Virus record (IMG/VR): IMGVR_UViG_3300045988_056969
Location: 46,751-110,750 of that record
Source: a virus
Reading direction: 5' to 3' (one strand)
Length of the DNA stretch: 64,000 nt
Shown: positions 23,449 through 43,230 of the stretch, one piece after another
Position numbering within the stretch: the stretch's first letter is position 1
How the letters are laid out: each line of letters opens with the position of its first letter
Notes under the pieces: model-generated
Database searches by the model: none
What the model was told of the DNA's origin: nothing
What the model saw: the letters and a program-made list of their open reading frames with translations, nothing else
Position numbers and translations under genes: made by a program

Positions 23449-23474
23449 AGCTACAGTTCGTGAGAATAGTAGCT
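23449..23474 (+). other. Conserved stem-loop motif, copy a (AGCTAC-AGTTCGTGAGAATA-GTAGCT)
   Basis: The same loop sequence recurs at 34165-34190 and 43205-43230 with different, compensatory stems. Confidence 0.5.
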
Positions 23475-23814
23475 TTAACTAGAATATTAATTTAAAACTA
23501 TATAGATATGATAATCATAATCATTTTATACATAATAGCTATCATAGGCTATAAATGTAAGAGTGCAGAAGTATGCCTGTTTTTCGGACTTTTAGCTACA
23601 ATACTACTTTGTTTGAGAATAGGCTCAGAAATAGGACATGCAATATAATTAAAATAAAGTAAAAATGAAAAAGATTAAAACTTATCCAAATCATTTAGAG
23701 ATTATAACCTCAGTCTTTATAAAGATTTTGATTTAGAAGGCATCAGAACAGTTACAGAAACATTTGTGAATGGAAAATTAGCAAGAAAAGATTTAACGAA
23801 TTAAAAAGAAAACC

Positions 23815-24048
23815 ATGAGAAAAAGATTCAAAGCTGCGAGAATAGCATCTTCAGACAACTACGAATTGTCTAGAAGAATACATTCTCAGTATTTAAAGAG
23901 ATGGCACAATGCTAACATCGAGGTAATCACTGAAATTACCACATCATTAGTAATCAAAGAACAAAAATACATAAGAGTATTTGGAGAATTAATTCCGATT
24001 TCGGAAGAGGAATTGAGAATCCATAACACTCTGATAGTTGAGAACTAA
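23815..24048 (+). CDS. Hypothetical protein
   Basis: ORF track. Confidence 0.4.
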   Translation: MRKRFKAARIASSDNYELSRRIHSQYLKRWHNANIEVITEITTSLVIKEQKYIRVFGELIPISEEELRIHNTLIVEN

Positions 24049-24289
24049 TATGGAAGATTTATTAGCAATTGTTAGATGGGGCATTACTTTACCCGTTTGG
24101 TTATTAGAACATATACTGAAAGGTTTAACTTTCATTGTTCTAGTATTTGGACTTGTCGTTATGGCGATTTTATTCCCGCTATTTCGATCTACTTGGCGTC
24201 GTACAGGCGATTCTCGTGTATTTAAGTATGCAACAAAGTGGAGAGGAAACTATCCACTAACAAAAAAAGTATTTAGTTTATGGCAATAA
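24038..24289 (+). CDS. Small membrane protein
   Basis: ORF track; hydrophobic segment. Confidence 0.4.
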   Translation: MRTNMEDLLAIVRWGITLPVWLLEHILKGLTFIVLVFGLVVMAILFPLFRSTWRRTGDSRVFKYATKWRGNYPLTKKVFSLWQ

Positions 24290-24569
24290 TGAGAAAAATC
24301 ACCGAAATAAACGGTGAGATAATTATGGTGGAAACTATGATTATTGTAGGCAATATAATCCTTTGTACAATTCATATTAATGGAGAGCTAGTTAAGTATG
24401 AAATATTATCTGTTGGACAGTTACGGGAAGATCGTTAGGTCTTTCCGTAGCTGGTCAGAAGCTAACAAATTCAGAATAGTGATGAATAGATTGGATTGGA
24501 GGATTGTACCATGACCTATATAGTAGTATTCATAATATTAATTATCATTTGGAAGGCAATTGAAGAACA

Positions 24570-25529
24570 ATGAAGACAATACTTACTCACATAGGAAAGA
24601 TTTATGTTGATACAGAACATAAACTTGAATTTCTAACCGTAGGAGACTATGGAAAAGAGAACAATATCAAAGCTAATTTCCTAGGATTAACTAAGGAGAT
24701 TAACGGAGTAGCTAATACTGAAGTTGACCTTAGTAAGAAGTGGGTTGCAACTATTTCAACTCAGAAAGGCTGTCCTATGCATTGTAAATTCTGTGATGTT
24801 CCCAAGTTTGGATTCTATGGAAATGCTTCTATAGAAGATATGGATAGACAAATCCGAACTATTATAGAAGGCGAAAGTGTCAGAGAAACAGACAGGTTTA
24901 ATGTACACTTTGCTAGAATGGGAGAACCAACATGGAATGATAATGTATTAGCATTTGGACTTGCTCTCAGAGGTGTGGTTAAGTCTGCAGGGTTAATAGC
25001 TAAAACTGTTCATCCAGTAGTTTCCACGATGCTTCCGAAAGCAAATAATAAGCTTGGAAACTTCTTACAGGTTTGGTGTAGCATAAAAAATGAGTTCTAC
25101 AATGGAGAAGCAGGCTTGCAGTTTTCAATCAATTCTACAGACGATGAACAGAGAAATGAGCTGTTTGACTCTAAGAGTTTGTCACTAGCACAAATTTCCC
25201 GGTTGGCTGACGAGTTACCAATGCCAGTAGGCAGAAAGTATACTCTAAATTTTCCAGTAACCTCACAAACTATTCTCGATGCGAAGGAATTGTCAAAGCT
25301 ATTTGATAGGGAGAAATTTATTGTTAAAATCACTCCTATACATGAAACAGCTTCTGCTATAGAGAATGGTTTCCAGGTAACTGGATACTCTGATTATGAC
25401 GTTTATCGTCGCTTTGAACAACCTTTATTGAAAGAAGGTTGGGATGTTATAGTGTTTGTTCCATCTAAGGAGGAAGATTCTGACCGAATTACTTGTGGGA
25501 ACGCACTAATCTCTGAAGAGAAGATTTAA
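24570..25529 (+). CDS. Radical-SAM RNA methyltransferase of the RlmN/Cfr family
   Basis: STQKGCPMHCKFCDV (RlmN GCALECKFC), ARMGEPTWN (MGMGEPLLN), INSTDDEQR (LHAPNDEIR), C-terminal ITCGNAL (AACGQL). Confidence 0.7.
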   Translation: MKTILTHIGKIYVDTEHKLEFLTVGDYGKENNIKANFLGLTKEINGVANTEVDLSKKWVATISTQKGCPMHCKFCDVPKFGFYGNASIEDMDRQIRTIIEGESVRETDRFNVHFARMGEPTWNDNVLAFGLALRGVVKSAGLIAKTVHPVVSTMLPKANNKLGNFLQVWCSIKNEFYNGEAGLQFSINSTDDEQRNELFDSKSLSLAQISRLADELPMPVGRKYTLNFPVTSQTILDAKELSKLFDREKFIVKITPIHETASAIENGFQVTGYSDYDVYRRFEQPLLKEGWDVIVFVPSKEEDSDRITCGNALISEEKI

Positions 25530-25591
25530 CAATTCTTAACTAAGAGAAATCTAGATTATACTATATAATAGTAGGCAAACTCTTAGTTATC

Positions 25592-25663
25592 CTTTCCTTA
25601 GTTCAATGGATAGAACCTCTGTCTTCTAAACAGATAATTCCAGTTCGAATCTGGAAGGAAAGA
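25592..25663 (+). tRNA. tRNA-Arg (anticodon TCT)
   Basis: CTTTCCT/AGGAAAG acceptor; D GTTC/GAAC; anticodon arm TCTGT-CTTCTAA-ACAGA; T-arm TCCAG-TTCGAAT-CTGGA. Confidence 0.75.
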
Positions 25664-25670
25664 CTATTAT

Positions 25671-25742
25671 TCTCCCCTTAGCTCAACGGTAGAGCTTTCG
25701 ACTTTTAATCGAAAGACAAGAGTTCGACTCTCTTAGGGAGAA
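25671..25742 (+). tRNA. tRNA-Lys (anticodon TTT)
   Basis: D GCTC/GAGC; anticodon arm TTCGA-CTTTTAA-TCGAA; T-loop TTCGACT; encoded CCA. Confidence 0.7.
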
Positions 25743-25763
25743 CCAACTTTAAATAATTAAGCT

Positions 25764-26137
25764 ATGATAAATGTAGACGAATTAAGAAACAAAAAGTAGC
25801 TCGGAGAAATAGGAGAGCGTATAGCCATTGGTGAATTATCAAAATATGGATTAGATATTTTATTACCAATGTCTGACAATCTACCATTTGATTTTGTTAT
25901 AATAACAAGTTTTACAGAACTTAGGTGAAAACTACTGCGAGTAAAACTGTAAATAACTCGTTGAACTTTAGTTTAACAAGTAATAATTATAACAAAGGGA
26001 CCGTTCACAAATACAACGAGGATGAAATAGATATTATGATATGTTGCGACCTTCATAACATCTATATATTTCCAGAATGTGATGTTGCTAATAGAAATTC
26101 TATTACTATTAGGGAGGAACCTCCAGCTAATAATTAG
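25764..26137 (+). pseudogene. YraN/UPF0102-like PD-(D/E)xK endonuclease paralog, apparently frameshifted; carries TAG at the motif-III position
   Basis: 25764-25927 gives MINVDELRNKK-Q-LGEIGERIAIGELSKYGLDILLP...FDFVIITSF, then TGA. A different frame (25925-26137) continues RT-Q-VKTTASKT..., parallel to the 27326-27727 protein. Confidence 0.4.
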
Positions 26138-26284
26138 ACAAAAGGTATAAACTTTGCAAAAGATTGCATCATATCTATAGAAAGATTAAATTATACTTTC
26201 TCTAAGATAGAGAAATAATTCCCTATTAATAGGGAAGTCTTTTATTCCGCTAGTAAACATTTGTTGTGAAACACGTGTTTGCAT

Positions 26285-26357
26285 CTGGGTATAGTCGAGT
26301 TGGTAAGATGCTACATTTGGGATGTAGAGACCGCAGGTTCGAGTCCTGCTATCCAGA
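26285..26357 (+). tRNA. tRNA-Pro (anticodon TGG); D-stem irregular
   Basis: CTGGGTA/TATCCAG acceptor; anticodon arm CTACA-TTTGGGA-TGTAG; T-arm GCAGG-TTCGAGT-CCTGC. Confidence 0.6.
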
Positions 26358-26569
26358 CAAGAAGTAATCAACATTCACTATTAGTACAGCAATTAGGACT
26401 GTAGGGTGCCTTTTAGATGAATCCCCGATTACTCCAATTAACAGAGGTGAGTTCCCTTAAAATTGTTACCACGCACTAGTGCGGCTATTAGCTACTAGAG
26501 GACTTGGGGTGCCAAGAGGAAGAATTGTAGTAGCTATGTTAATTAGAACAAATCTGTTAATTGCTTTAT

Positions 26570-26653
26570 GGGATAGCGCCAACGATGGAGAGTTGGGACG
26601 GACTGTAAATCCGTTGCCTTTAGGCTTAGTAGGTTCGAATCCTACCTATCCCA
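26570..26653 (+). tRNA. tRNA-Tyr (anticodon GTA), long variable arm
   Basis: GGGATAG/CTATCCC acceptor; anticodon arm ACGGA-CTGTAAA-TCCGT; 14-nt variable arm; T-arm GTAGG-TTCGAAT-CCTAC. Confidence 0.75.
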
Positions 26654-26680
26654 CAATTATGTAAAATAACTTACCAAAAG

Positions 26681-27052
26681 ATGATAAGAATTTCTAGAAT
26701 TGTAGCTAAGGATAGAATAGCAGATTTGCTAGACTTGAATTTCGTATCTAAGATAACTCTTAGACAAGGTAGACAAGGATTCAAAAATCCTGCAATTTGC
26801 AGAGTGGAAATCTATCTCCAAGTAGATAATGATACAGAATACTTTAATAGTGTTATGAGTAACATTGTTGACTGGGGAAAGGAGCGTAATTGTAATATTG
26901 CTGTTACCACAGCAAATATGGCTCTACATGATGGATTTATTAAAGAGTCTGCATTTGATGACTTTGATTATCCTATGCCAAAAAAGTATAAGGACTTATG
27001 CAGCGTATATTCTGACGAATATTTTAGACTATTTAATAGGAGAAAGATATAA
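26681..27052 (+). CDS. Hypothetical protein
   Basis: ORF track. Confidence 0.45.
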   Translation: MIRISRIVAKDRIADLLDLNFVSKITLRQGRQGFKNPAICRVEIYLQVDNDTEYFNSVMSNIVDWGKERNCNIAVTTANMALHDGFIKESAFDDFDYPMPKKYKDLCSVYSDEYFRLFNRRKI

Positions 27053-27265
27053 TGGAAGACAAATATGAAGGGCTATCTGATGAAGAACTCAAAGAAATCT
27101 TCGAAGATATGCAGGCAGACTATTGGATAGATTATTATCAATCTATCTATGAATAAAACCCTATTAGCGAGACCTAGGATATGGATTTTAGAAATATGTA
27201 TACCCACTGCATATAGGTTAGTCATATTTAAATGAGGAAACCAGGGTTCTCTACTAGGTCGATTC

Positions 27266-27300
27266 GGGATTGTAACCGGTAATTGGTAGCCGCGCAGATT
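27266..27300 (+). tRNA. 5' half (exon 1) of a split type-II tRNA: acceptor GGGATTG, D-arm, 5' strand of the anticodon stem GCAGA
   Basis: Pairs perfectly with the 3' half at 27826-27872 (acceptor 7/7 bp, anticodon stem GCAGA/TCTGC). Confidence 0.5.
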
Positions 27301-27325
27301 AAACTAATAATTAAAAATTAAATTT

Positions 27326-27727
27326 ATGGAATTAAGAGAATTTTCTACTTTTACTAAATAGGGAAATGTAGGACTTGCTTATGCTATTGCCTATTATTCT
27401 AAATTAGGGTATACTATTAGTATTCCCTTAACTGATTCACAAGATTATGACATAATAGTTGATACTGGAAATACCTTACTAAAAGTGTAGGTAAAGACTA
27501 CAACTTGTAGAAGAGATAGTGGAAACTACTAGTTAAACTTAAAAGTAAGTGGCGGAAATAGAAGCGGAACAGGAAAAGTAAAGACCTTCGATTTAAATAA
27601 ATGCGACCTGATATTCGCAATGACTGAGTAGTTTGAATTTTATTCTATTCCGAGGTCTGAAATTTCTGCAGCATCTTCTATTACTCTTGGAGAAAAGTAT
27701 TTACCTTTCAAGGTGTCTTTAATTTAA
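27326..27727 (+). CDS. YraN/UPF0102-like PD-(D/E)xK endonuclease (133 aa) with 4 in-frame TAG; sits inside the interrupted tRNA; absent from the ORF track
   Basis: MELREFSTFTK-Q-GNVGLAYAIAYYSKLGYTISIPLTDSQDYDIIVDTGNTLLKV-Q-VKTTT... fits the G.GE..A..YL...GY.IL...GEIDLI...VEVK pattern; TAA at 27725-27727. Confidence 0.55.
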
Positions 27728-27733
27728 TAAGAG

Positions 27734-27817
27734 GGGAGATTATTCCGTAGATGGTAGCGGGGCGCACTGTAAATGCGCTGCCTAACGGCTCGGGGTGTTC
27801 GACTCACTCATCTCCCA
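27734..27817 (+). tRNA. tRNA-Tyr-like (anticodon GTA) with a long variable arm, lying inside the tRNA-interrupting insertion
   Basis: GGGAGAT/ATCTCCC acceptor; anticodon arm GCGCA-CTGTAAA-TGCGC; T-arm GGGTG-TTCGACT-CACTC; weak D-stem. Confidence 0.5.
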
Positions 27818-27825
27818 CTACTAAT

Positions 27826-27872
27826 AAATCTGCTCTCTTTTGAGACTGGAGGTTCGAGTCCTCCCAATCCCA
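27826..27872 (+). tRNA. 3' half (exon 2) of the split tRNA: TCTGC anticodon-stem strand, variable hairpin CTCTC-ttt-GAGA, T-arm GGAGG-TTCGAGT-CCTCC, acceptor CAATCCC, discriminator A
   Basis: Complementary to exon 1 at 27266-27300. Confidence 0.5.
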
Positions 27873-28112
27873 CACTAATTTCAATATATTATGATGATAT
27901 TTGTATATTCAGCATTTATATACATAATAAGCATGTACATAGTTGGCCTTTATATGGCAGTAAATGAACGATTTGTTACAGTTAGAAGACTCGCAATAAT
28001 GGCATTACCAGTAATAAATACTATATTTGTTATTGTAATACTATTATTTGGTATTAAACCATTTATAAAAACAGTTATAAACGAATTTAAAGAAATTACA
28101 AAATGACAAATT

Positions 28113-28358
28113 ATGAGTACGGAGAAGGATACTTACCAGAAATCTGGTACTAGTGTAGTATTTCAAAAAGAAATTAAGCAGTGTAGAGAATGTCCGCACT
28201 GCTTAATTGTTCCTGACCCAGATCCTAATGACTGGTTCAATGATGACGACGAGAAAGCGCTCTGTAAGGAGTCTGAGAATAAACTAATTGAAGGAATGTT
28301 AAGACCTTACGAAAGGGTATTAATTCCAGATTGGTGTCCATTAAAAACTAATAAATAA
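28113..28358 (+). CDS. Small zinc-binding protein (CxxC...CxxC...C)
   Basis: ORF track. Confidence 0.45.
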   Translation: MSTEKDTYQKSGTSVVFQKEIKQCRECPHCLIVPDPDPNDWFNDDDEKALCKESENKLIEGMLRPYERVLIPDWCPLKTNK

Positions 28359-28359
28359 A

Positions 28360-28827
28360 ATGAATAAAATGAATAAAATGAATAAAACAAAAGCTTGCCT
28401 TGAAATAACTTTAGAACAGGCACGTAAATGGTATGAGAGTGGCAATGAAGACTTGAAAAAATTAGCTCTTACCGCTTTTAGTGAAGAAGTTCTAGTCCCT
28501 TCTCTTGGAGAAATATTAGAATCTGAAAAGGATTGGGATGTGCTATTTTTACCTTTAGGGATATCAGAGCAAACTAAGTCTCTAATTTGTCTACAAATAG
28601 TAGCTAATTACTTAAACAATGGTTGGAATAAAACAGAGAGTAACAGCGGTTATTTCCTTGGAAGGGGTTCTTCTCTATCTGGAAAGACGGAAACTGATAT
28701 AAAAGGAGTGTACGTCGTTATGCATCAAAACGTAAAATATCCAGGTGTTGTTTATTTTAGAACTGTAGCTGATGTACAGAAAGCGGTGAAGATACTAGGA
28801 AAGAAGTTGCTGCCGCTATTCGAATAA
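28360..28827 (+). CDS. Hypothetical protein (N-terminal MNK x3 repeat)
   Basis: ORF track. Confidence 0.45.
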   Translation: MNKMNKMNKTKACLEITLEQARKWYESGNEDLKKLALTAFSEEVLVPSLGEILESEKDWDVLFLPLGISEQTKSLICLQIVANYLNNGWNKTESNSGYFLGRGSSLSGKTETDIKGVYVVMHQNVKYPGVVYFRTVADVQKAVKILGKKLLPLFE

Positions 28828-28834
28828 TTTGATG

Positions 28835-28908
28835 GTGTTATTAGTTCAGTTGGTCAGAACGCTACATTGTGGCTGTAGAGGTCAGCGGTTCGAATCCGCT
28901 ATAACACC
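28835..28908 (+). tRNA. tRNA-His (anticodon GTG) with G-1 and discriminator C73
   Basis: G-1 then GTGTTAT/ATAACAC; D GTTC/GAAC; anticodon arm CTACA-TTGTGGC-TGTAG; T-arm AGCGG-TTCGAAT-CCGCT. Confidence 0.75.
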
Positions 28909-28938
28909 CAAACCATGTTTTATTAAATATTATAACAA

Positions 28939-29499
28939 ATGAAAAGAACTATTGAAATTGAATGTCCAGATGGTTATAAACCCATCTATAATGCCGAAAC
29001 TGGCAATGTTGAAATCGTTCCAGAAAACATTATGGGACGAATAAAGACCTATGAGGACGCTAGAGACTATCTTGGGTACTTATTTAATAGTGAAATCCAT
29101 TACACTGAATCTGTAAAGGCTCTAGCTAAGTTGCAAACAATTCTGGATGCGCTGAACGAAAAGCACAAGTTCAATCTGCTGACTGGTACTATATGGTATC
29201 CCTGGGTTCGCTTCTTTAGAATGAAATCAGTTCCGAAGGATGCAGAAGTCATTGGTCACTTCCGTTATCAGGGCGAGAAATTCGCGTTGGTGGGCGGCGA
29301 CGCGGCTATTGGCGGCACTGCGGGTCTCGGCTGTTTCTGTTCTGCCTTTGGCGTCGGCTTTGCCTATTCCAATGTTGGGATGCTTGCGTGCAAATCTGAA
29401 GAGATTGCCAAATACGTATCAACCCAGTTTGGAAAGCTAGTGTTCGATGCTTGTTTTGCAAGACATTTCAAGGGTGAAGAATTTGAATGGCTTGACTAA
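28939..29499 (+). CDS. DGR target protein 2 (186 aa) with VR2 at codons about 116-146 (FALVGGDAAIGGTAGLGCFCSAFGVGFAYSNVGM)
   Basis: 29286-29375 matches the reverse complement of TR with about 25 differences, all at TR adenines in the coding sense. Confidence 0.75.
   Translation: MKRTIEIECPDGYKPIYNAETGNVEIVPENIMGRIKTYEDARDYLGYLFNSEIHYTESVKALAKLQTILDALNEKHKFNLLTGTIWYPWVRFFRMKSVPKDAEVIGHFRYQGEKFALVGGDAAIGGTAGLGCFCSAFGVGFAYSNVGMLACKSEEIAKYVSTQFGKLVFDACFARHFKGEEFEWLD
29286..29375. repeat. DGR variable repeat 2 (VR2), about 27 kb from TR
   Basis: See the alignment against the reverse complement of TR 1732-1825. Confidence 0.75.
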
Positions 29500-30162: not shown

Positions 30163-30167
30163 CAAAT

Positions 30168-34056: not shown

Positions 34057-34133
34057 GGGACGATAGCTCAGTAGGTAGAGCGCTGGACTGAAAATCCAGG
34101 ACGTTAGCGGCAGTTCGATCCTGCCTCGTCCCA
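34057..34133 (+). tRNA. tRNA-Phe (anticodon GAA); unusual 9-nt variable region
   Basis: GGGACGA/TCGTCCC; D GCTC/GAGC; anticodon arm CTGGA-CTGAAAA-TCCAG; T-arm GGCAG-TTCGATC-CTGCC. Confidence 0.7.
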
Positions 34134-34164
34134 CTTGCATTGTGTGTTTTTCATGGTAAATAGA

Positions 34165-34190
34165 CTTAGTGGTTCGTGAGAATAGCTAAG
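34165..34190 (+). other. Conserved stem-loop motif, copy b (CTTAG-TGGTTCGTGAGAATAG-CTAAG), 7 nt upstream of the next tRNA
   Basis: Same loop sequence as copies a and c with a different stem. Confidence 0.5.
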
Positions 34191-34197: not shown

Positions 34198-34270
34198 TGG
34201 GCTATGGTGTAATGGTTAGCACTACAGATTTTGATTCTGTCAGTCTAGGTTCGAGTCCCTCCTACCCTAC
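34198..34270 (+). tRNA. tRNA-Gln-like (anticodon TTG); D-arm identical to the CTA suppressor; T-arm and acceptor irregular, so possibly degenerate
   Basis: TGGGCTATGGTGTAATGGTTAGCAC...ACAGA-TTTTGAT-TCTGT; acceptor TGGGCTA/TACCCTA with one C-C mismatch; T-stem pairs only 2-3 bp. Confidence 0.45.
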
Positions 34271-34455: not shown

Positions 34456-35868
34456 ATGACCGTAGAAGAATTAGAAGGTAAGCTGACTAATATCTACCAT
34501 GAATTTGCTGAAACAATCTCTGAAAATGAGACTGATGAGCAAATAGTTGCCCGTTCTAAAGAGTGGTTTGTAAAAAGACTCTCAGAGGAAACTGATAACA
34601 AAGAAGCTATAGAATCTATAGCTAATCAATTAGTAGGATGTCTCAAACAGGCATCTGTTTTAAGTAACCTAGAAAAAGAAAAAATGAACAAAGTTTGGAT
34701 GTGTTCTGGGTCTACATATACCCAGGTAAGCTCAGGCTATAGCGTTGAGCAGTCTCTCCCAGTTGGAATCTACAGTATTTGTCTGACAATGACAGGTTAT
34801 CACCTAGACAGATATGCGGATAAGTTTGTATTCCCGTACAAAATGTATGGTTTGCAGAACGAGTTTATTGACCATGTAATTAAGACGTATCACGCTACAG
34901 AAGGCAATCTCGGAATTATGCTTACTGGTACAAAGGGCACTGGAAAGACTGTTACCGCTAAGGAACTAGCTAACAAGCTAAATCTGCCCATCATTATCGT
35001 AAAGGATATGGGAGACCATAATCAATCTATGATTGAGTTCCTTTCTGGTATTGAAGGAGATTGCATTCTGTTCTTGGATGAATTTGAAAAGAATTTCAGT
35101 GAATCGGATTCTACTATCTTGCAAATCATGGACGGTGTTTACAACTCTAAGTATCGCAAGGTTTTCCTGCTTACTACTAATGCCATGACCATCAATGAGA
35201 ATATGGTAGGACGTCCGTCTAGAATCCGTTATGTCAAGGAATTTGGCAACTTGGATTTGAAGGTTGTGAACGAATATCTGGACGACGCACTTCAAGTGCC
35301 GGAAGCTCGTCAAGATTTGCTTGATTTCATTGATTCTTTGACTATATCTACTATTGATATTCTCAAAACTATAGTTAATGAGGTCAATATTCACGGTATA
35401 GAAGGATTGAGAAGAGCTAAGAGCTTCTTCAATGTAGTAACTAATGAGTATGACTATTCCTGCGTCAGAGGTTATGCATATGCTTATGAGATTTCTGCTG
35501 ATAAGAATAAATTCTCTATTGAAGAGTTCTCTAAAGCTGTTGAGAGATTCAACAATCCGATGCCAAAGCCCATTGTAGACGATGAGGATAACTGTACTGT
35601 TGAGGAAAGAAAAGCTCTTAACGAGTATTATGAATATCGCCGCCACAATTTCCACAGTCTGTCATATTTCTATGTATCCTCGGATATTAAGTTCGCAAAT
35701 CTGTCAGTTGGAGACGACTTCTATGATGAGGAAATCATTGCGATTGACAAAAAGTTGGGAATCGTAGTTACTAAGGAAAATAATGAGGTTAACTACTACT
35801 GGGTTAAAGATCCAAATAGTAAACCGTCTCTGTATCGTAGAGGTACTTACAACTCTTTGGTACTATAA
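34456..35868 (+). CDS. AAA+ ATPase (470 aa), function unknown
   Basis: Walker A GTKGTGKT; Walker B ILFLDEFEK. Confidence 0.6.
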   Translation: MTVEELEGKLTNIYHEFAETISENETDEQIVARSKEWFVKRLSEETDNKEAIESIANQLVGCLKQASVLSNLEKEKMNKVWMCSGSTYTQVSSGYSVEQSLPVGIYSICLTMTGYHLDRYADKFVFPYKMYGLQNEFIDHVIKTYHATEGNLGIMLTGTKGTGKTVTAKELANKLNLPIIIVKDMGDHNQSMIEFLSGIEGDCILFLDEFEKNFSESDSTILQIMDGVYNSKYRKVFLLTTNAMTINENMVGRPSRIRYVKEFGNLDLKVVNEYLDDALQVPEARQDLLDFIDSLTISTIDILKTIVNEVNIHGIEGLRRAKSFFNVVTNEYDYSCVRGYAYAYEISADKNKFSIEEFSKAVERFNNPMPKPIVDDEDNCTVEERKALNEYYEYRRHNFHSLSYFYVSSDIKFANLSVGDDFYDEEIIAIDKKLGIVVTKENNEVNYYWVKDPNSKPSLYRRGTYNSLVL

Positions 35869-37247: not shown

Positions 37248-37282
37248 TTCGTTTAGGAGAGTATCGTAAAACTCTCCATTAT

Positions 37283-37357: not shown

Positions 37358-37362
37358 CATTT

Positions 37363-37434: not shown

Positions 37435-37449
37435 CAAAATTTAAGTTTT

Positions 37450-37674
37450 ATGAAAATAAAGTGTACAGTATGTAATAAAGAATTTTATTATGGAGACCAT
37501 AACTCTCCAATGTTTATTGATGAGGTTTGGAACAAGATAATAAATTACTTTAAGCTAACCAATTTTGAAAAAGAAGCTGCAAAGAAATTCTCCTCTTATT
37601 ACAAAGGGGAGGTAAAGATTATTATCCAGACCACCATGTGTTTATCTGTAGCGAATGTGCGGAGAAGGCTCTAG
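37450..37674 (+). CDS. Small zinc-ribbon protein; the C-terminal CxxC continues in the -1 frame (frameshift or sequencing error)
   Basis: CTVC...then HHVFICSECAEKALGREITDKD is encoded in another frame around 37615. Confidence 0.35.
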   Translation: MKIKCTVCNKEFYYGDHNSPMFIDEVWNKIINYFKLTNFEKEAAKKFSSYYKGEVKIIIQTTMCLSVANVRRRL

Positions 37675-37752
37675 GTAGGGAAATAACTGATAAGGATATT
37701 AATGATTCATTATTTAATATCCCATTTAGAGAGAAGTACTTTAAATCTTAAT

Positions 37753-37837
37753 ATCCGTGTGGGTGAATGGTTTAGCCATCAGTCTGCAAAACTGAAAAGA
37801 GAAATCTTTAATGAGGGTTCGAATCCCTCCACGGATT
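37753..37837 (+). tRNA. Atypical type-II tRNA with anticodon GCA (Cys), a 17-nt variable arm and discriminator U
   Basis: ATCCGTG/CACGGAT perfect acceptor; anticodon arm TCAGT-CTGCAAA-ACTGA; variable hairpin AAAGA-gaaa-TCTTT; T-arm GAGGG-TTCGAAT-CCCTC. Confidence 0.55.
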
Positions 37838-37848
37838 CTAATTTTAAA

Positions 37849-38493
37849 TTTAAAAATATGGCATATATTTATTGCATTACAAATTTAATTAATAGCAAGC
37901 GATACGTAGGAAAAACTACTACTTCTATAGAAGAGCGCTGGAAGGAACATTGTTATGACTTTTAGAAAGAAAGATGCAACAAAAGACCTTTATATGATGC
38001 CATGAATAAGTATGGTGTTGAGAACTTTATGATAGAGGAATTGGAATATGTAGATAGTAACTCTGAATTATCTGAAAGAGAAATCTATTGGATAAAAGAG
38101 CTAGGAACTTATGGTTCTAATGGGTACAATGCCTCTAAAGGAGGAGATGGCACTATTCTATACAATCATAGTGAAATTGTAGAATTAGCTAGATTGGGAT
38201 ATACTAGTTCTTAGATACAAGAAAAAATAGGGTGCTGTAAAGACACTATTTACAAAGTTTTGAAGGCAAATAATATAAAAATTAGAAAAAGTAACGCAAA
38301 GTTAATTGCTTAGTATGACTTAGCAGGTAATTTTATACAGGTATTCTTTGGTTCCAGAGAAGCTTAGGAATGGTTAATTAATAACGGAATTACTGACAAT
38401 AAATCTGCATAGAGTCATATTATAGGATGCTGTAAGAATAAAACCAAATCATAGTATGGCTACATTTGGAAATATCTTCCAGAGCCTATTTAA
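37849..38493 (+). CDS. GIY-YIG homing endonuclease (about 214 aa) with 6 in-frame TAG; track fragments 37702-37965 and 38002-38214 are pieces of it
   Basis: MAYIYCITNLINSKRYVGKTT...EERWKEHCYDF-Q-KERC...NKYGVENFMIEELE...REIYWIKELGT..GYN is collinear with I-TevI. The C-terminus IGCCKDTIYKVLK...KSQYGYIW (NUMOD-type DNA-binding region) is reached only by reading through TAG at 38212, 38338, 38386, 38428 and 38464. Confidence 0.7.
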
Positions 38494-38610
38494 TCTTTAA
38501 ATCACTGTTTCGACATTTTCAGTCTAAATGCCGTGTCTGAAGACGTTACCAACCAGTCGTGCTATACGGTTAGAATAGTCCGTGCCTCACTGGTGATAGA
38601 GGCATCCCTG

Positions 38611-38634
38611 GGTAGCGGATGTAAAGTGGCTACC
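38611..38634 (+). other. Stem-loop GGTAGC-ggatgtaaagtg-GCTACC immediately 5' of a tRNA (same stem as motif copy c, different loop)
   Basis: Direct reading. Confidence 0.35.
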
Positions 38635-38639
38635 AATAT

Positions 38640-38718
38640 CGTGGAGTAGAGAAGTGGTCATCTCGCTAGGCTCATAACCTAGAAATCGTCATAAACGGTT
38701 CGAATCCTACCTCCGCAA
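38640..38718 (+). tRNA. Initiator-like tRNA-Met (anticodon CAT; C1 x A72 mismatch); T-arm poorly paired, so possibly degenerate
   Basis: CGTGGAG/CTCCGCA-A; D GAGA/TCTC; anticodon arm CTAGG-CTCATAA-CCTAG; the T region AAACGGTTCGAATCCTAC pairs poorly. Confidence 0.4.
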
Positions 38719-38962
38719 CGAAACTCCTTTTGTGGCCCTGAATTAGATTAATTATTAACAATTTTAAACTTTGATGTTATGAAGAAAGTAATTAATGTTG
38801 TGAAGAAAGCTGCTAAGTGGTATTTTGAACAGAGTTCTAAGAGCTATACATGGTTAGTTTCTGGAACTATTCCGCCTCCTTATAGAGGTCTAGAGTAAAG
38901 ATACTACTAAAAGGTAAGTACCAAAGGGGTACTTATCTACACCCGTGGAGAAAATTAACTAT

Positions 38963-39034
38963 TGGGGTATAGTTCAAAGGTCAGAACTTTTGACTGTTAA
39001 TCAAAGAATCATGGTTCGAGTCCATGTGCCCCAG
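38963..39034 (+). tRNA. tRNA-Asn (anticodon GTT)
   Basis: TGGGGTA/TGCCCCA; D GTTC/GAAC; anticodon arm TTTGA-CTGTTAA-TCAAA; T-arm CATGG-TTCGAGT-CCATG. Confidence 0.75.
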
Positions 39035-39559
39035 CTATTGACCTTATATTAGATTATGCATCAGTGTGATTATTGTTGTTGGTACTACAGTGGAAATTGT
39101 GATTGTCCATATGTAATGAAGAAACAAGCGTGTGAAAATGCTTTGAAAACTAAAGAGAGAAATGAAAGACCTATTAGAAAAGTACAAAATGTTTCAAACT
39201 CCAAAACTAGCTAATGAGATTTCATGGAAAGACATGAAGGAATTTAACTCTTATATGAAAGAAGTAGTTCGTGATTATAAGATTAAACAGGCTAAATCAA
39301 TTCAGAGTGCTAGAAACGTAATAATATCCTGACCTGGCAAGGTAAAAATCCATTCGGGGTTTAAGTTGAAGCCAGTCCCTGCGAAATCATAGAGACCTTT
39401 TCTGACACGATAGTCGATGAACTGAGAGTAGCATGGTTGCGGACTTATGCTACTAGAACATGATTCAAACAAAAAAACTTATCTGGTGTTGTTAAGTTGT
39501 GGAATCTTAACAGTGGAAATTTATGGGTATGTCACCAATTAAAAAGAAAATCCCAAAAA

Positions 39560-39632
39560 TGGGCCGTTAGCTCAAATGGCTAGAGCGCTGGTTTTGCACA
39601 CCGGAAGATAGGGTTCGAGTCCCTGCGTGTCC
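39560..39632 (+). tRNA. tRNA-Ala (anticodon TGC) with G3-U70, but acceptor positions 5-7 are not complementary
   Basis: GGGCCGT vs CGTGTCC; D GCTC/GAGC; anticodon arm CTGGT-TTTGCAC-ACCGG; T-arm TAGGG-TTCGAGT-CCCTG. Confidence 0.5.
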
Positions 39633-39841
39633 ACAAACTTTATTTAAAAAATTATGAAAGTATATGTAGTTGTAGTAAATTATCACCAGCTAATGCTCCT
39701 CAAAATTATGAAACTGATTGCCAAATCTTCTTAGACAAGAAACAGGCAGAGAAGTATAAAGAGGCTAAGGAAAAAGAGTTTCCTATTAGATGGGGAGGAG
39801 AGTATAATCATTGTAAACTAATTAAAAAGCATTTGTAATAT

Positions 39842-39915
39842 CGCGGGATGATAGCAGAGGTAGCTAGTCAGGCTCATAACCTGAAGGTCGTCGGTTCGAA
39901 TCCGAGTGGGGGATC
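39842..39915 (+). tRNA. fMet-like tRNA (anticodon CAT), close to E. coli initiator up to the T-loop, but the 3' acceptor strand TGGGGGA is not complementary to 5' CGCGGGA
   Basis: D TAGC/GCTA; anticodon arm TCAGG-CTCATAA-CCTGA; AGGTC-GTCGG-TTCGAAT-CCGAG, then TGGGGGATC. Confidence 0.4.
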
Positions 39916-39941
39916 TTAACCATTAAATTAGATTAATTTTT

Positions 39942-40616
39942 ATGACTAGATTAGAAAAGTATTTAGTGGCAACTGCTACTGAGATTATCGAAGCGGAAAC
40001 AACTGTTTCTCGCTACTTTGTCATTGGAAACGTCAAAGTTAGAGTATCAGACCATTTAAGTAAAATGAGTGATGCAGACTTACAAGTGATTATTCCATTG
40101 AACGGAGGGACTAAGTATATAGTTACTGTTAAGGATAGTCCTGGAAAATTTCTTGTATGGAATGCAACTCAAATAAAAGACTTTATTCCTTCATTGCAGA
40201 TTATTAAGGGCTTGAAGGAAGGAGTGCAACTTAAGCCAAAACCTAAAGACTCTGCAGTTCAGAAGATTCAGCTAGCATTAAATAATAGTAATACCGATGG
40301 AGGTTCGTTAACGTTTGATGGTACTATTATTGAGTCTAGATTGAAAGAAAAGCAACTTACTTCCAAACAGCGGGAAGTTTTCAGGAGAACTAAATCTACT
40401 TGGGATATTTCTCAGATTGGGACATTACCCAGTATGATTAAAGTAGATTTAGGATTGTCAAATGGTTCTGTAAACGAAGATGTGCAGATATTTCTAACTT
40501 GTACATCTTTAACCTACAAAGAAATTCTGAACATTTATAAAATAATAGTTGTTGATAACCGTATGGTTCCAACTATTAAACTGTTGCAAGAAGCTTATAG
40601 CTTGATTGTGCAGTAG
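39942..40616 (+). CDS. Hypothetical protein (224 aa)
   Basis: ORF track. Confidence 0.5.
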   Translation: MTRLEKYLVATATEIIEAETTVSRYFVIGNVKVRVSDHLSKMSDADLQVIIPLNGGTKYIVTVKDSPGKFLVWNATQIKDFIPSLQIIKGLKEGVQLKPKPKDSAVQKIQLALNNSNTDGGSLTFDGTIIESRLKEKQLTSKQREVFRRTKSTWDISQIGTLPSMIKVDLGLSNGSVNEDVQIFLTCTSLTYKEILNIYKIIVVDNRMVPTIKLLQEAYSLIVQ

Positions 40617-40619
40617 GAT

Positions 40620-40691
40620 AGCGCCATCATCTAATGGTTAGGATTCAGGCTTTTCACGCCTGCCATACGGGTTCGAATCCCGTTGGCGTTA
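40620..40691 (+). tRNA. tRNA-Glu (anticodon TTC)
   Basis: AGCGCCA/TGGCGTT; D ATCT/GGAT; anticodon arm CAGGC-TTTTCAC-GCCTG; T-arm ACGGG-TTCGAAT-CCCGT. Confidence 0.7.
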
Positions 40692-40741
40692 CTATGTACC
40701 CCAGCAGCGAAAGTTGTTGGGTATTTTTTGTTTAATTTAAT

Positions 40742-41068
40742 TTGTGTTTAATGCGAAAAACATTTGAATTTGTAAAAGTGGGAGGAGTCTGGTTTTATTG
40801 GTGGCCAGACTTCGATGGAGACCCAGGAGAGTTGGCTATGGTTGGCGGGGCTGACGATCTTCTTGATTCTCTTGATGATAGATTTGTTAGGTTGCAGATG
40901 GTTGACCCTTCTGTAGCTAAGATTGTTCTATCTAAGATTGAAGAAGATGAGAATGGAGCTACTTACTTGTGTAAAAGTAAGAATTATAACGATAGAGTTT
41001 GGATTTGTCCAGTAACTCTACTAGTATTTAACGAATATCCTCAAAACATTTATTTGTCTGAATTATAA
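40742..41068 (+). CDS. Hypothetical protein
   Basis: ORF track. Confidence 0.45.
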   Translation: MCLMRKTFEFVKVGGVWFYWWPDFDGDPGELAMVGGADDLLDSLDDRFVRLQMVDPSVAKIVLSKIEEDENGATYLCKSKNYNDRVWICPVTLLVFNEYPQNIYLSEL

Positions 41069-41517
41069 TGAAAACATTAGATGAAATCGTAAACAATTAC
41101 GAAGAATGGTCTGTATTTCTTGACGATAGATTTGGAGTTAGATTAGCTCAATTTCTGACACAGGAACAGTTAGAGAAAATAGGTTTTAAGTGGAATAGTG
41201 ATGAACCTTATCCTGAACCCAAAGAGTGGACTAGAGAGAATATTCTTTCCCAACTTAAAGAAGATGTAGAGTTCGGATTTGAAAAAGCCCTTGACAAGAG
41301 AGGTATTTCTGCAAGTCTGATGTTTGCTGTAGTTCTTAGATGGAATAGAGTTCTTGAGGAAGGCTTGGAGGATTATCCAGAGGATAACTATGCTATGTAT
41401 TTGCCATTATTTAAGGCTACTGCGGAAAAGTATGGCTGGGAGAATCCTATCGGAGATGATAGTGGAAGCGAGGACTATTATAACGAAGAGTATGATGAAG
41501 GATTGTACTGCGATTAA
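41068..41517 (+). CDS. Hypothetical acidic protein
   Basis: ORF track. Confidence 0.5.
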   Translation: MKTLDEIVNNYEEWSVFLDDRFGVRLAQFLTQEQLEKIGFKWNSDEPYPEPKEWTRENILSQLKEDVEFGFEKALDKRGISASLMFAVVLRWNRVLEEGLEDYPEDNYAMYLPLFKATAEKYGWENPIGDDSGSEDYYNEEYDEGLYCD

Positions 41518-41683
41518 AGTCATTGCCGAAGCTCTGGAAGAATATGAAAATAATTTCAACCATAAGATAAATATCTTAGAAAGCAAGATTATTCTCTATG
41601 AAAAGGAGAGAAAAGCTATTATAAGACATCTTAAGGAAGGGAATATAGAATTATTAAAGAGTTATTTTGGAATTGAAAAATGA
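41492..41683 (+). CDS. Small coiled-coil protein (track ORF 41354-41683 trimmed to the internal ATG)
   Basis: The upstream part overlaps 41068-41517 in another frame. Confidence 0.35.
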   Translation: MMKDCTAIKVIAEALEEYENNFNHKINILESKIILYEKERKAIIRHLKEGNIELLKSYFGIEK

Positions 41684-41840
41684 AGGAATACTACCTGATT
41701 AAGTGCAGAAATAATATCCCATTCATTATAGGTCAGTATGATACCGAAGAAGATGCCAGGAAGGCGAAGAATCGTGAGAATCCTAATTCCGAGCTTATGA
41801 TAGTAGTTAACATAGAAAAGGATAAGCCTGAGAAAACATC

Positions 41841-42137
41841 ATGATTACTGAGATTTCATACGATAAGGACTTATTAGGAAAGGAAGTTAGGGGTACAAAT
41901 ACTTCCTACTGGGGTATATCAGCTTTACAGGCAGGCCACGATGACATCCGCCAAGATATTTCAAAATATTTATTTAGAGACTGTGTGGTAGATAGTGGAC
42001 ATAAAGGGATAATTATAGGGTTCGAAGATAATAACCAATTCTTTGATTACTATTATATAGTCTATGTCCCAGAACTTGATAAAGTTGTTTATCAACTATG
42101 TAATGATGCAAGATTTATTAATTCTATTGAGATATGA
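41841..42137 (+). CDS. Hypothetical protein
   Basis: ORF track. Confidence 0.45.
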   Translation: MITEISYDKDLLGKEVRGTNTSYWGISALQAGHDDIRQDISKYLFRDCVVDSGHKGIIIGFEDNNQFFDYYYIVYVPELDKVVYQLCNDARFINSIEI

Positions 42138-42631
42138 AAAAGAGAGTTTTAATTATTTTAATGATTAGTATTGTATTCGGATTTGCAACTGGTTATTCCT
42201 TGCACCACTGGATACATTCTGCGAGGTTTCTAGAGGAGAAAATTATGCTGATGCCGGAACATCCATTCTATTTGATGGAGGAGGTGAATGAGGAAGTATT
42301 GTATAATACTCTTAAACACTATGATTTCCCAAGTCCTGCTATCATAACAGCTCAGGCTATTCTAGAATCTGGTAACTTCAAGTCTAAACTTTGTAAGGAC
42401 AACAATAATTTGTTCGGACTGTATAATTCAAGAACGATGTCCTATTTCAAGTTTGATAGTTGGATAAGCTGTGTATTTGCTTATAAGCAATTTATTCTAA
42501 GTAGGTACGATCCAGAAGAGGACTATTATAGATTCCTAGATAGGATTGGATATGCCGAAGATCCTCTATATGAGAGTAAGGTTAAAGAATTAGAGTTAGA
42601 TATTATCAACAAGTATGGAAGCCCAGATTGA
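42134..42631 (+). CDS. Peptidoglycan hydrolase, N-acetylglucosaminidase family (FlgJ-like), with an N-terminal TM anchor; endolysin/SAR-endolysin candidate
   Basis: AQAILESGNFKSKLCKDNNNLFGL matches the glucosaminidase signature AQAxLESGWG...NNLFGI. Confidence 0.65.
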   Translation: MKKRVLIILMISIVFGFATGYSLHHWIHSARFLEEKIMLMPEHPFYLMEEVNEEVLYNTLKHYDFPSPAIITAQAILESGNFKSKLCKDNNNLFGLYNSRTMSYFKFDSWISCVFAYKQFILSRYDPEEDYYRFLDRIGYAEDPLYESKVKELELDIINKYGSPD

Positions 42632-42836
42632 AAAGGCTATTGAGCTTAGAAAACAAGCTAACTTTAAGATTTTAACTAGACTAGCTCAAATCATAGAATG
42701 CAGTCCGCATTTGCGATTCCAGCAAATATTATCCAATTACAAAGTCTGTGAATTAGGTAAGGATAAGTTCTATGAAGAGAGTATAGAAACTCTTAGGAAT
42801 TTAGAAGGAGAAATGAACAAAAAGTTGAACACTTAA
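42615..42836 (+). CDS. Hypothetical protein
   Basis: ORF track. Confidence 0.4.
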   Translation: MEAQIEKAIELRKQANFKILTRLAQIIECSPHLRFQQILSNYKVCELGKDKFYEESIETLRNLEGEMNKKLNT

Positions 42837-43204
42837 TAGATTTAAAATGGAATTTAAGAATTTTAAGAAAGATGTAGAAGCTGCTTTCAATAATATGATT
42901 GCAGAAAATCTGTTTGTTGCGAATTTGAAGGAGTAGCCTGGTTGACATTCAGTCCTGGACTACCCTTTGATATTCATGGAGAGGGTTACGATTTTGAAGA
43001 GCTTGGGTTAATAGGCACAGAAGCTAATCTAAGATACTTTGAAAAAGTTACCCCTAACTATATTGATTGTGGAACTGATGTTGATAAGTTTATTAACACC
43101 TGTCTACAGTTTAAGTAAGTTAACAGTTTTTAACTTTGAATTTAACAATTCGGAGACTAATCTAGTAAGAAGATTAGAAAAATGATACTTTAGGATTATC
43201 TCTC

Positions 43205-43230
43205 GGTAGCGGTTCGTGAGAATAGCTACC
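43205..43230 (+). other. Conserved stem-loop motif, copy c (GGTAGC-GGTTCGTGAGAATA-GCTACC), overlapping the 5' end of tRNA-Leu
   Basis: Same loop as copies a and b; stem differs by compensatory changes. Confidence 0.5.

What the first reader, a model, noticed from the sequence alone, without database searches (positions are those of the whole stretch)
23449..43230. Conserved 14-nt loop GTTCGTGAGAATAG presented on three different stems, next to tRNAs
Copy a is AGCTAC-AGTTCGTGAGAATA-GTAGCT (23449-23474, about 34 nt after the UUA tRNA). Copy b is CTTAG-TGGTTCGTGAGAATAG-CTAAG (34165-34190, about 33 nt after tRNA-Phe and 7 nt before tRNA-Gln-like). Copy c is GGTAGC-GGTTCGTGAGAATA-GCTACC (43205-43230, overlapping the 5' end of tRNA-Leu). 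The loop is identical and the stems differ completely but stay complementary. That is the covariation signature of a functional RNA element. A related stem with a different loop (38611-38634) abuts another tRNA. Possible roles are a tRNA-processing signal, a mini-ribozyme, or a protein-binding site.
Basis: seen in the sequence. Interest (0 to 1): 0.6.

Follow-up and report, generated by a model that had tools for sequence, protein, structure and literature searches.

The report
Capped RNA hairpin beside phage tRNAs
The three copies belong to a widespread, apparently undescribed RNA hairpin of gut phages and Bacteroidales, whose variable stem carries a strictly specified cap and which sits at transcript ends or just upstream of tRNA genes; the cap looks like a docking site for an unknown factor.

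Summary
GTTCGTGAGAATA occurs exactly three times on the + strand, each time between complementary arms of unrelated sequence. The "14-nt loop" is actually structured: a purine·A mismatch, a 4-bp helix (GUUC/GAAU, starting with G·U) and a GUGA tetraloop.

Relatives keep the hairpin with compensatory changes in both helices. Exact-word scans of IMG/VR work as natural mutagenesis, counting hits with at least 6 bp of complementary flanks:
- Wild-type cap: 116/140.
- Compensated cap (GUAC/GUAU): 67/119.
- Broken cap: 0/103.
- GAAA loop: 0/120.
- UUCG loop: 1/120.
- G-C in place of G·U: 5/120.

The cap is therefore specifically recognised and does more than add stability.

Family members are intergenic and usually co-oriented with the upstream gene. 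About 46% carry a terminator-like U tail, including copies after ordinary Bacteroidales genes. About 22% lie within 20 nt (mostly 2-13 nt) upstream of a tRNA. Bacteroides phage crAss001 has one.

There is no Rfam family, no literature hit and no HDV-like (theta) ribozyme signature. My best reading is a 3'-end or terminator-type hairpin with a factor-binding cap. The window copies lack U tails, and two precede tRNAs. The function is inferred, not shown.

The parts
23449..23474 (+). Capped hairpin a. Lower stem 23449-23454/23469-23474, A·A mismatch 23455/23468, cap helix GUUC 23456-23459 / GAAU 23464-23467, GUGA tetraloop 23460-23463. It lies 34 nt after tRNA(UUA) and 33 nt before the ATG (23508) of a small hydrophobic ORF.
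   Evidence: Orthologues in L037/L039/L110/L060 and in L045 (stem ATGTTAC/GTAACAT, loop GGGA) are shown.
34165..34190 (+). Capped hairpin b. Lower stem CUUAGU/GCUAAG, G·A mismatch 34171/34184, cap helix 34172-34175/34180-34183, GUGA loop 34176-34179. It lies between tRNA-Phe and tRNA-Gln, 8 nt before tRNA-Gln.
   Evidence: It is present in 32 of 34 related loci, with loops GUGA/GAGA/GGGA and compensatory stem changes.
43205..43230 (+). Capped hairpin c. Lower stem GGUAGC/GCUACC, G·A mismatch 43211/43224, cap helix 43212-43215/43220-43223, GUGA loop 43216-43219. It is fused to the 5' end of tRNA-Leu(UAA) by an 8-nt deletion.
   Evidence: Orthologues in L005/L008/L026 have cap helix GUAC/GUAU and stem GAUUAGC/GCUAAUC.
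34137..34162 (+). Spacer GCAUUGUGUGUUUUUCAUGGUAAAUA between tRNA-Phe and hairpin b. It is nearly invariant in relatives, differing only in the length of the U run, even where tRNA-Phe itself is replaced. It contains the UUGUGU word enriched upstream of family members.
   Evidence: No function has been tested.
34199..34270 (+). tRNA-Gln(UUG), immediately downstream of hairpin b (context).
43227..43312 (+). tRNA-Leu(UAA), immediately downstream of hairpin c. Its acceptor stem is damaged by the deletion (context).
23344..23414 (+). tRNA with anticodon UUA (ochre-suppressor type), upstream of hairpin a (context).
34057..34134 (+). tRNA-Phe(GAA), upstream of hairpin b (context).

Best explanation
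What it is. The three copies belong to a family of cis-acting RNA hairpins, transcribed as part of the + strand operons. A freely variable 6-10 bp basal stem carries a fixed cap. The cap consists of a Y-G pair, a purine·A mismatch, a 4-bp helix whose first pair is G·U, and a C-G-closed G-N-G-A tetraloop.

What it most likely does. The hairpin marks or forms RNA 3' ends. Where a U tract follows, it acts as an intrinsic terminator; this is true of about half of the family, including copies behind ordinary Bacteroidales genes. Where a tRNA follows within 2-13 nt (copies b and c here), RNase P cleavage at the tRNA 5' end would leave the hairpin as the 3'-terminal structure of the upstream RNA. There it would pause RNA polymerase, insulate tRNA folding and block 3' exonucleases.

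The cap. It is the docking site for a trans-acting factor: a protein, RNA polymerase with its elongation factors, or an RNA receptor for GNGA loops. That factor would modulate termination, stability or processing.

Shown: the structure, the specificity of the cap, the strand, the genomic positions, and the association with U tails and tRNAs.
Inferred: termination or 3'-end protection, the RNase P scenario, and the existence of a binding factor.
For: Structure and covariation.
- Folding of the three copies.
- Orthologues: (98.9% of cells paired, 5 pairs with double changes).
- 88 distinct hairpins: (95.6% paired; 11 of 12 pairs show double changes; covariation score 0.83 against 0.18 in shuffles).

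Cap specificity, from whole-collection word scans (hits with at least 6 bp of complementary flanks).
- Wild type 116/140.
- Compensated GUAC/GUAU 67/119; broken pair 0/103.
- GAAA loop 0/120; UUCG loop 1/120.
- G-C instead of G·U 5/120.
- Bacterial and archaeal genome background 16/120.

Strand. In the stems G·U outnumbers A·C 38:16. The first lower pair is U·G in 45 of 92 sites. G·U at the base of the cap helix occurs in 87 of 88 hairpins.

Position. 70 of 81 are intergenic. The upstream ORF is co-oriented in 55 of 70. Convergent (+,-) contexts number 19 against 8 divergent.

U tail. 33 of 72 have a terminator-like tail, against 8.3 +/- 2.9 at random positions and 3 on the opposite strand.

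Bacteroidales chromosomes. Copies lie after GH57/glycogen-synthase genes, between a convergent fucosidase and phosphorylase, and in similar places. All of these have U tails.

tRNA adjacency. 16 of 72 against 1.4% at random positions, in unrelated phages and for at least seven tRNA identities. Bacteroides phage crAss001 has a copy at 1877-1910, 6 nt before tRNA-Glu.
Against: - None of the three window copies has a U tract, and none is called terminator-like. In this phage termination is therefore unproven and may not occur.
- In arrays such as L172, a U-tailed hairpin sits 7-10 nt before each tRNA. That is awkward for an efficient terminator inside an operon.
- 26 of 72 members have neither a U tail nor a tRNA.
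- 8 members lie in divergent (5'-side) contexts.
- No binding factor was found, and no gene family recurs next to the hairpins.
- No transcript-end data were available.
Confidence: 0.45

Rival explanations
1. Regulated read-through element, boxB/nut-like or an attenuator. A phage or host protein binds the cap co-transcriptionally and switches the hairpin between terminating or pausing and read-through. This would time the expression of downstream tRNAs and genes.
For: - The loop and wobble requirements are strict and go beyond stability.
- U-tailed copies lie directly in front of tRNAs inside arrays.
- There are one to three copies per operon region, co-oriented with transcription.
- By established knowledge, lambda N recognises GNRA-like boxB loops.
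Against: - The cap is nearly identical across very different phages and also occurs on chromosomal Bacteroidales genes. N-type antiterminators and their boxB sites diverge quickly.
- No boxA-like partner motif was looked for systematically, and no candidate protein was found.
- 19 copies lie between convergent genes, with nothing downstream to regulate.
Confidence: 0.2
2. Dedicated tRNA-precursor processing signal. The hairpin in the 5' leader, or in the inter-tRNA spacer, guides RNase P, RNase Z, RNase Y or a phage nuclease to cut tRNA precursors correctly.
For: - A tRNA starts within 20 nt (mostly 2-13 nt) after the hairpin about 16 times more often than at random positions.
- Copies b and c are conserved in front of tRNA-Gln and tRNA-Leu in relatives. 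The crAss001 copy lies in front of tRNA-Glu.
- UUGUGU is enriched in the trailer upstream.
Against: - About 78% of unique members have no tRNA next to them, and the copies followed up on Bacteroidales chromosomes lie behind protein-coding genes.
- Only 2 of about 21 tRNAs in the window, and 1 of about 25 in crAss001, have a hairpin.
- The spacing to the tRNA varies from 2 to 18 nt.
Confidence: 0.12
3. DNA-level element. The hairpin would be extruded from single-stranded or supercoiled DNA and serve as a promoter (N4-like), a replication or priming site, or a recombination hot spot that shuffles tRNA cassettes.
For: - In L034 the homology with the window breaks exactly after GAATAG, and the 3' arm is replaced.
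- The regions downstream of copy b plus tRNA-Gln are variable among relatives.
Against: - G·U wobble pairs are frequent on one strand only, and G·U at the cap base is nearly invariant. These would be A·C mismatches on the other strand and weak G·T pairs in DNA.
- GNGA tetraloop specificity is an RNA feature.
- The orientation follows that of transcription.
Confidence: 0.05
4. Small self-cleaving ribozyme, or part of an HDV-like theta ribozyme that trims the 3' end of the upstream tRNA.
For: - Theta ribozymes are common directly after tRNAs in recoded gut phages (PMC10879173), and this window is TAG-recoded.
- Copies a and b start 30-34 nt after a tRNA.
Against: - The window has no P3/L3 signature (RCC-U-CC-NCGY-GGY) with a matching P1.
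- The spacer cannot be threaded onto the HDV fold (my manual attempt).
- No ribozyme family appears at E up to 5-10.
- The motif is absent from the theta-ribozyme supplementary tables.
- Only a plain hairpin is conserved. Many copies have no tRNA upstream.
Confidence: 0.03

Closest known systems
Rho-independent (intrinsic) transcription terminators
   Same: A stable stem-loop in the nascent RNA. It is intergenic and co-oriented with the upstream gene. It often lies between convergent genes. A U tract follows in 46% of family members.
   Different: Ordinary terminators have no sequence-specific apex. Here a 14-nt cap with a mismatch, a G·U pair and a GNGA loop is required. The three window copies, and about half of the family, lack the U tract.
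Lambda-type nut boxB hairpins (N-dependent antitermination)
   Same: A short phage RNA hairpin whose GNRA-type loop, rather than its stem sequence, is the recognition element. It is co-transcribed inside operons.
   Different: boxB has a 5-bp stem and a pentaloop, works together with boxA, and is phage-specific. This cap is shared by very diverse phages and by bacterial genes. No boxA or N-like partner is known here.
Phage T7 RNase III processing hairpins between early genes
   Same: Conserved intercistronic hairpins in a phage polycistronic transcript, which after cleavage leave a protective 3' hairpin.
   Different: T7 sites are longer (about 20 bp), with an internal loop that is itself cleaved. 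Here the helix is 11-15 bp with a 1x1 mismatch, and no cleavage has been demonstrated.
HDV-like theta ribozymes next to phage tRNAs (PMC10879173)
   Same: The same ecological and genomic niche: tRNA clusters of recoded gut phages, mostly of Bacteroidota.
   Different: Theta ribozymes are 55-nt double pseudoknots that start at the tRNA 3' end. This is a simple hairpin, usually before a tRNA, and it lacks the ribozyme core.
GUCCY-hairpin motif (Weinberg et al. 2010, PMC2864571)
   Same: A short hairpin candidate motif reported in Bacteroidetes. It is too small for confident homology search and has no Rfam accession in that paper's table.
   Different: In GUCCY the flanks (GUC...CY) are conserved and the hairpin is variable. 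Here the apex is conserved and the base is variable.

Membership tests
Intrinsic (Rho-independent) terminator | Stable RNA stem-loop formed by the transcribed strand | tested here: met
   MFE structures; covariation and the strand test.
Intrinsic (Rho-independent) terminator | U-rich tract immediately 3' of the stem | tested here: not met
   Window copies: a is followed by UUUAAC, b by CCAAAAUU, c by GGAUGG. None is called terminator-like. In the wider family 33 of 72 meet this feature, against 8.3 expected.
Intrinsic (Rho-independent) terminator | Position at the 3' end of a co-oriented transcription unit | tested here: inconclusive
   Family: the upstream ORF is co-oriented in 55 of 70, and 19 lie between convergent genes. 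Window copies lie inside a long + strand gene and tRNA series, so unit ends are unknown.
HDV-like theta ribozyme | P3/L3 core RCC-U-CC-NCGY-GGY flanked by complementary P1 strands, with catalytic C in J4/2 | tested here: not met
   A pattern scan of both strands of the window found none. The architecture was taken from the supplementary tables of PMC10879173.
HDV-like theta ribozyme | Cleavage site (start of P1) within +/-5 nt of a tRNA 3' end | tested here: not met
   The hairpins start 30-34 nt after the upstream tRNA, or have no upstream tRNA at all (copy c).
Any Rfam 15 family | Covariance-model match at the gathering score, or a suggestive sub-threshold match | tested here: not met
   Searches give no match on any hairpin at E up to 5-10.
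GNRA-tetraloop hairpin | Four-base loop G-N-R-A closed by a Watson-Crick pair, varying only at N | tested here: met
   The loops seen are GUGA, GAGA, GGGA and GCGA, closed by C-G. The family is narrower than GNRA: GAAA is not used (0/120).
Lambda-type nut site | boxA element and a cognate N-like antiterminator protein | not tested
   No systematic search for boxA was done. No recurrent neighbouring gene was found.
tRNA or tRNA-like element | Cloverleaf, or a T-arm with the U54-A58 type 7-nt loop | tested here: not met
   ARAGORN and Rfam do not call the hairpins. Loop position 2 varies (U/A/G/C), so a UUCGA T-loop is excluded. A tRNA T-arm is only a 16-bit match to the hairpin model.

The most novel reading that the evidence does not exclude
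The cap (R·A mismatch, G·U-based 4-bp helix, C-G-closed GNGA loop) is the recognition element of an undiscovered, conserved trans-acting factor. The factor could be host- or phage-encoded, and either a protein or an RNA receptor. It would control termination or read-through, 3'-end stability, or maturation of phage operon and tRNA-cluster transcripts in Bacteroidales and some Firmicutes. That would be a new layer of post-initiation control, shared by gut phages and their hosts.
Probability: 0.3. Interest if true: 0.75.

Novelty: new variant of a known kind. Interest (0 to 1): 0.6.

Why it matters
- Bacteroidales and their phages dominate the human gut, yet their transcription termination and RNA processing signals are poorly known.
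- A small hairpin whose apex is fixed down to a wobble pair and one loop base, and which is re-used on hundreds of unrelated stems, implies a specific reader that nobody has named.
- It gives a concrete handle (a bait RNA and clean mutant designs) for finding that factor.
- It offers a compact part for engineering Bacteroides and phage operons.
- It is a new annotation feature for phage tRNA clusters, next to theta ribozymes, RAGATH RNAs and group I introns.
- A member in the cultivable phage crAss001 makes the question directly testable.

Tried and rejected
- HDV-like/theta ribozyme. I tried to thread the tRNA-Phe/tRNA-Gln spacer onto P1-P2-P3-P1.1-P4 by hand and with a pattern scan. No P1 or P3 fits. 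The GAAUAGC shared with the commonest theta P1 is a coincidence, because theta P1 sequences vary freely.
- T-arm or T-loop mimic. Rejected because loop position 2 varies and the upper helix covaries as Watson-Crick pairs.
- Sarcin-ricin-loop mimic. Only the C-GNGA-G part resembles it. The flanking pairs covary as ordinary pairs (my reasoning).
- Promoter readings (sigma-70-like, or Bacteroides TTTG/TAnnTTTG) in the spacers. There are single suggestive matches only, with nothing consistent across copies (my inspection).
- Shared neighbouring gene that might encode a partner. All-against-all BLAST of flanking ORFs found no family at more than 8 of 68 hairpins.
- Literature. Full-text search for the sequence returned only primer coincidences. 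The phage structured-RNA survey has no supplement held as text, and the GUCCY hairpin is a different motif.
- Annotated relatives in GenBank phages. Only unannotated gut fragments were found.
- Extra diverged copies in the window. None were found with either covariance model with filters off.
- Small in-frame ORFs running through the spacers. The frames are not conserved among relatives (my inspection).


Full report
1. THE OBSERVATION

The 13-mer GTTCGTGAGAATA occurs exactly three times in the window, at 23456, 34172 and 43212, all on the + strand. About 0.002 exact copies of a given 13-mer are expected by chance in 2 x 64 kb (my arithmetic).

Each copy sits between 6-nt arms that are complementary within a copy but unrelated between copies.

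One correction is needed. The "14-nt loop" is itself structured. ViennaRNA folds all three copies as a lower stem, a 1x1 purine·A mismatch, a 4-bp helix GUUC/GAAU that begins with a G·U pair, and a GUGA tetraloop. The same fold dominates in the full spacers.

2. RELATIVES OF THIS PHAGE

The window comes from a human-gut phage of about 185-190 kb. Its left 17 kb (- strand) is readable only if TAG is a sense codon.

34 related IMG/VR loci were fetched through the AAA ATPase at 34456-35868, and 80 through the radical-SAM-like protein at 24570-25529.

- Copy b is present in 32 of 34 loci. The tetraloop is GUGA, GAGA or GGGA. The lower stem changes with compensation (CUUAGU/GCUAAG to CUUAAC/GUUAAG, and similar). 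One cap helix has U-A replaced by U·G.
- Copy c orthologues in L005, L008 and L026 have a doubly compensated cap helix (GUAC/GUAU) on yet another stem.
- Copy a orthologues include L045, with stem AUGUUAC/GUAACAU and loop GGGA, and with no tRNA upstream.
- On nine distinct sequences, 98.9% of cells pair and five pairs show double changes. No shuffle or slid register comes close.
- Covariance models find only the three copies in the window.

3. THE MOTIF IS WIDESPREAD

- 116 of the 140 sites have at least 6 bp of complementary flanks, on dozens of unrelated stem sequences and often with two or three copies per locus.
- The same word in bacterial and archaeal genomes is mostly background: 74 of 120 sites have 0-1 flanking pairs. 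Sixteen sites have stems of 6 bp or more; of those whose record title was listed, most are from Bacteroidales.
- An alignment of 88 distinct hairpins gives 95.6% pairing, and 11 of 12 pairs have changes on both sides. The central six stem pairs were selected for pairing; the outer two and the cap helix were not.

4. NATURAL MUTAGENESIS OF THE CAP

I scanned IMG/VR for single variants of the word and counted how many hits sit in a hairpin context (at least 6 bp of complementary flanks).

| Variant | Hits in hairpin context |
|---|---|
| Wild type | 116/140 |
| Compensated third pair (GUAC/GUAU) | 67/119 |
| Same pair broken (GUUC/GUAU), complete scan | 0/103 |
| Loop GAAA | 0/120 |
| Loop UUCG | 1/120 |
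| G·U replaced by G-C | 5/120 (two distinct hairpins) |

Within the loci, other compensated cap helices occur (GCUC/GAGU, GUCC/GGAU, GUGC/GCAU, UUUC/GAAA). The loops are GUGA, GAGA, GGGA or GCGA.

So the cap helix must pair, the loop must be G-N-G-A, and the wobble pair is strongly preferred. GAAA and UUCG loops are at least as stabilising (established knowledge of tetraloop thermodynamics). The constraint is therefore recognition, not stability.

5. STRAND AND GENOMIC POSITION

Strand. Without any structural filter, stem positions 2-7 hold 38 G·U against 16 A·C. The first lower pair is U·G in 45 of 92 sites. Runs of 6 or more pairs number 61 under the motif-strand rule and 42 under the opposite-strand rule. 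The structure therefore belongs to the strand that carries the motif, which is the transcribed strand in the window.

Position. Of 81 unique hairpins, 70 are intergenic. The upstream ORF is co-oriented in 55 of 70. Nineteen lie between convergent genes and eight between divergent ones.

U tail. T is enriched at +1 to +4 after the stem. 33 of 72 unique hairpins meet a terminator criterion, against 8.3 +/- 2.9 at random positions and 3 on the reverse strand.

tRNA adjacency. 16 of 72 are followed within 20 nt by a tRNA-like gene, against 1.4% of random positions. Thirteen of these sixteen lack a U tail.

Bacterial chromosomes. The capped hairpin with a U tail follows ordinary genes: a GH57/glycogen-synthase pair, a fucosidase convergent with a phosphorylase, and others.

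Model phage. Bacteroides phage crAss001 has one member at 1877-1910 (30.2 bits, cap helix GUCU/AGAU). It lies 6 nt before tRNA-Glu, and there is none in the 50-100 kb segment searched (the last 2.7 kb of the genome were not searched).

6. WHAT IT IS NOT

- No Rfam 15 family matches, even at E up to 5-10.
- It is not an HDV-like theta ribozyme, the known tRNA-linked RNA of recoded gut phages (PMC10879173). The core signature is absent from the window, the motif is absent from that paper's sequence tables, and the spacer cannot form P1/P3.
- It is not a T-arm mimic or a sarcin-ricin mimic, because the relevant positions covary as plain pairs.
- The sequence is not mentioned in the searchable literature.
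- The GUCCY hairpin of Weinberg et al. 2010 has the opposite conservation pattern.
- No gene family recurs next to the hairpins.

7. MOST LIKELY MECHANISM

The common denominator is a co-transcribed hairpin followed either by a U tract or by a tRNA. Either arrangement would leave the hairpin at an RNA 3' end. A U tract does so by intrinsic termination. A tRNA does so through RNase P cleavage at the tRNA 5' end (established knowledge of tRNA processing).

I therefore read the family as 3'-end or terminator-type hairpins whose cap is read by a trans-acting factor that tunes termination, pausing, stability or processing (confidence about 0.45).

In this window the three copies lack U tracts, so they probably do not terminate on their own. 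Copy b lies 8 nt before tRNA-Gln. Copy c was 4 nt before tRNA-Leu until an 8-nt deletion fused them. Copy a separates the RAGATH-14/tRNA(UUA) unit from a small ORF.

Everything beyond structure, specificity, strand and position is inference.

The rivals, with evidence and refutation tests, are listed separately:
- a regulated read-through (boxB-like) element, 0.2;
- a dedicated tRNA-processing signal, 0.12;
- a DNA-level hairpin, 0.05;
- a ribozyme, 0.03.

8. NOVELTY AND VERDICT

The tRNA link is partial, and the ribozyme idea is unsupported.

As far as Rfam 15 and the searchable literature show, the element is undescribed. It is a terminator-like hairpin with a sequence-specific GNGA/G·U cap, enriched in gut phages and also used by Bacteroidales. 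Its function and its reader are unknown, but they can be tested directly in crAss001.

Noticed in passing
window 23126-23323 (+): Near-threshold match to RAGATH-14 RNA (RF03145): 145.1 bits against a gathering score of 149.1, E about 1e-26 to 1e-28, over the full model length. It lies directly upstream of the tRNA with anticodon UUA.
   Followed up: partly
window 1-17900 (- strand); tRNAs at 20304-20376 (-) and 23344-23414 (+): The left part of the window has long ORFs only if TAG is read as sense: 8 ORFs of 250 aa or more, against 1 under code 11. The phage carries a tRNA(CUA), and also a tRNA(UUA) of ochre-suppressor type whose role is unclear, since TAA-as-sense does not open ORFs.
   Followed up: partly
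window 43225-43240 compared with L030 17200-17225: tRNA-Leu(UAA) in the window has lost its native 5' acceptor strand through an 8-nt deletion. The 3' arm of hairpin c substitutes for it, with two mismatches, so this tRNA (42 bits) may be impaired.
   Followed up: partly
L026 about 19866-20714: In one relative, tRNA-Leu(UAA) is interrupted in the anticodon loop, and a group I intron match follows at 20460-20714 (41.8 bits, E 7e-9, below the gathering score of 50). This resembles the classic tRNA-Leu(UAA) intron arrangement, here in a gut phage.
   Followed up: partly
window 38500-38640 (+): Conserved non-coding stretch upstream of an 80-nt tRNA-Met. A hairpin at 38583-38604 (UGCCUC/GAGGCA) covaries to UGUCUC/GAGACA in L018. 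A short hairpin ACGG-UUAGAAUAGU-CCGU looks like a decayed cap. The 38611-38634 hairpin keeps its pairing through wobble changes only.
   Followed up: partly
window 34137-34162 and the 60 nt upstream of family members in L115-L234: UUGUGU-type words are enriched upstream of the hairpins (TTGTGT in 18 of 72 against 1.3 expected, partly from related phages). The 26-nt spacer before copy b is nearly invariant in relatives, differing only in U-run length, even where the upstream tRNA-Phe is a different gene. A similar UUUCAUG word occurs in the crAss001 spacer.
   Followed up: partly
L172 1700-2450; L159 about 5200-5350: In some phage tRNA arrays every tRNA is preceded by a U-tailed capped hairpin. 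A second mini-hairpin, GCUC-GUGA-GAGU, sits 1-2 nt after the 3' end of the preceding tRNA, giving a repeated spacer module of about 90 nt.
   Followed up: no
window 39561-39633 and 39851-39906 (+); 27736-27872 (+): Rfam calls two further tRNA-like sequences that ARAGORN misses (39.5 bits, and a partial one at 32.9 bits). It also gives a 137-nt alternative alignment for the second tRNA-Tyr.
   Followed up: no
L034 21023-21055: Homology between this relative and the window ends exactly after GAATAG of hairpin c. The 3' arm is lost, and a different tRNA-Leu(UAA) follows about 110 nt later. A recombination breakpoint therefore falls inside the hairpin.
   Followed up: partly
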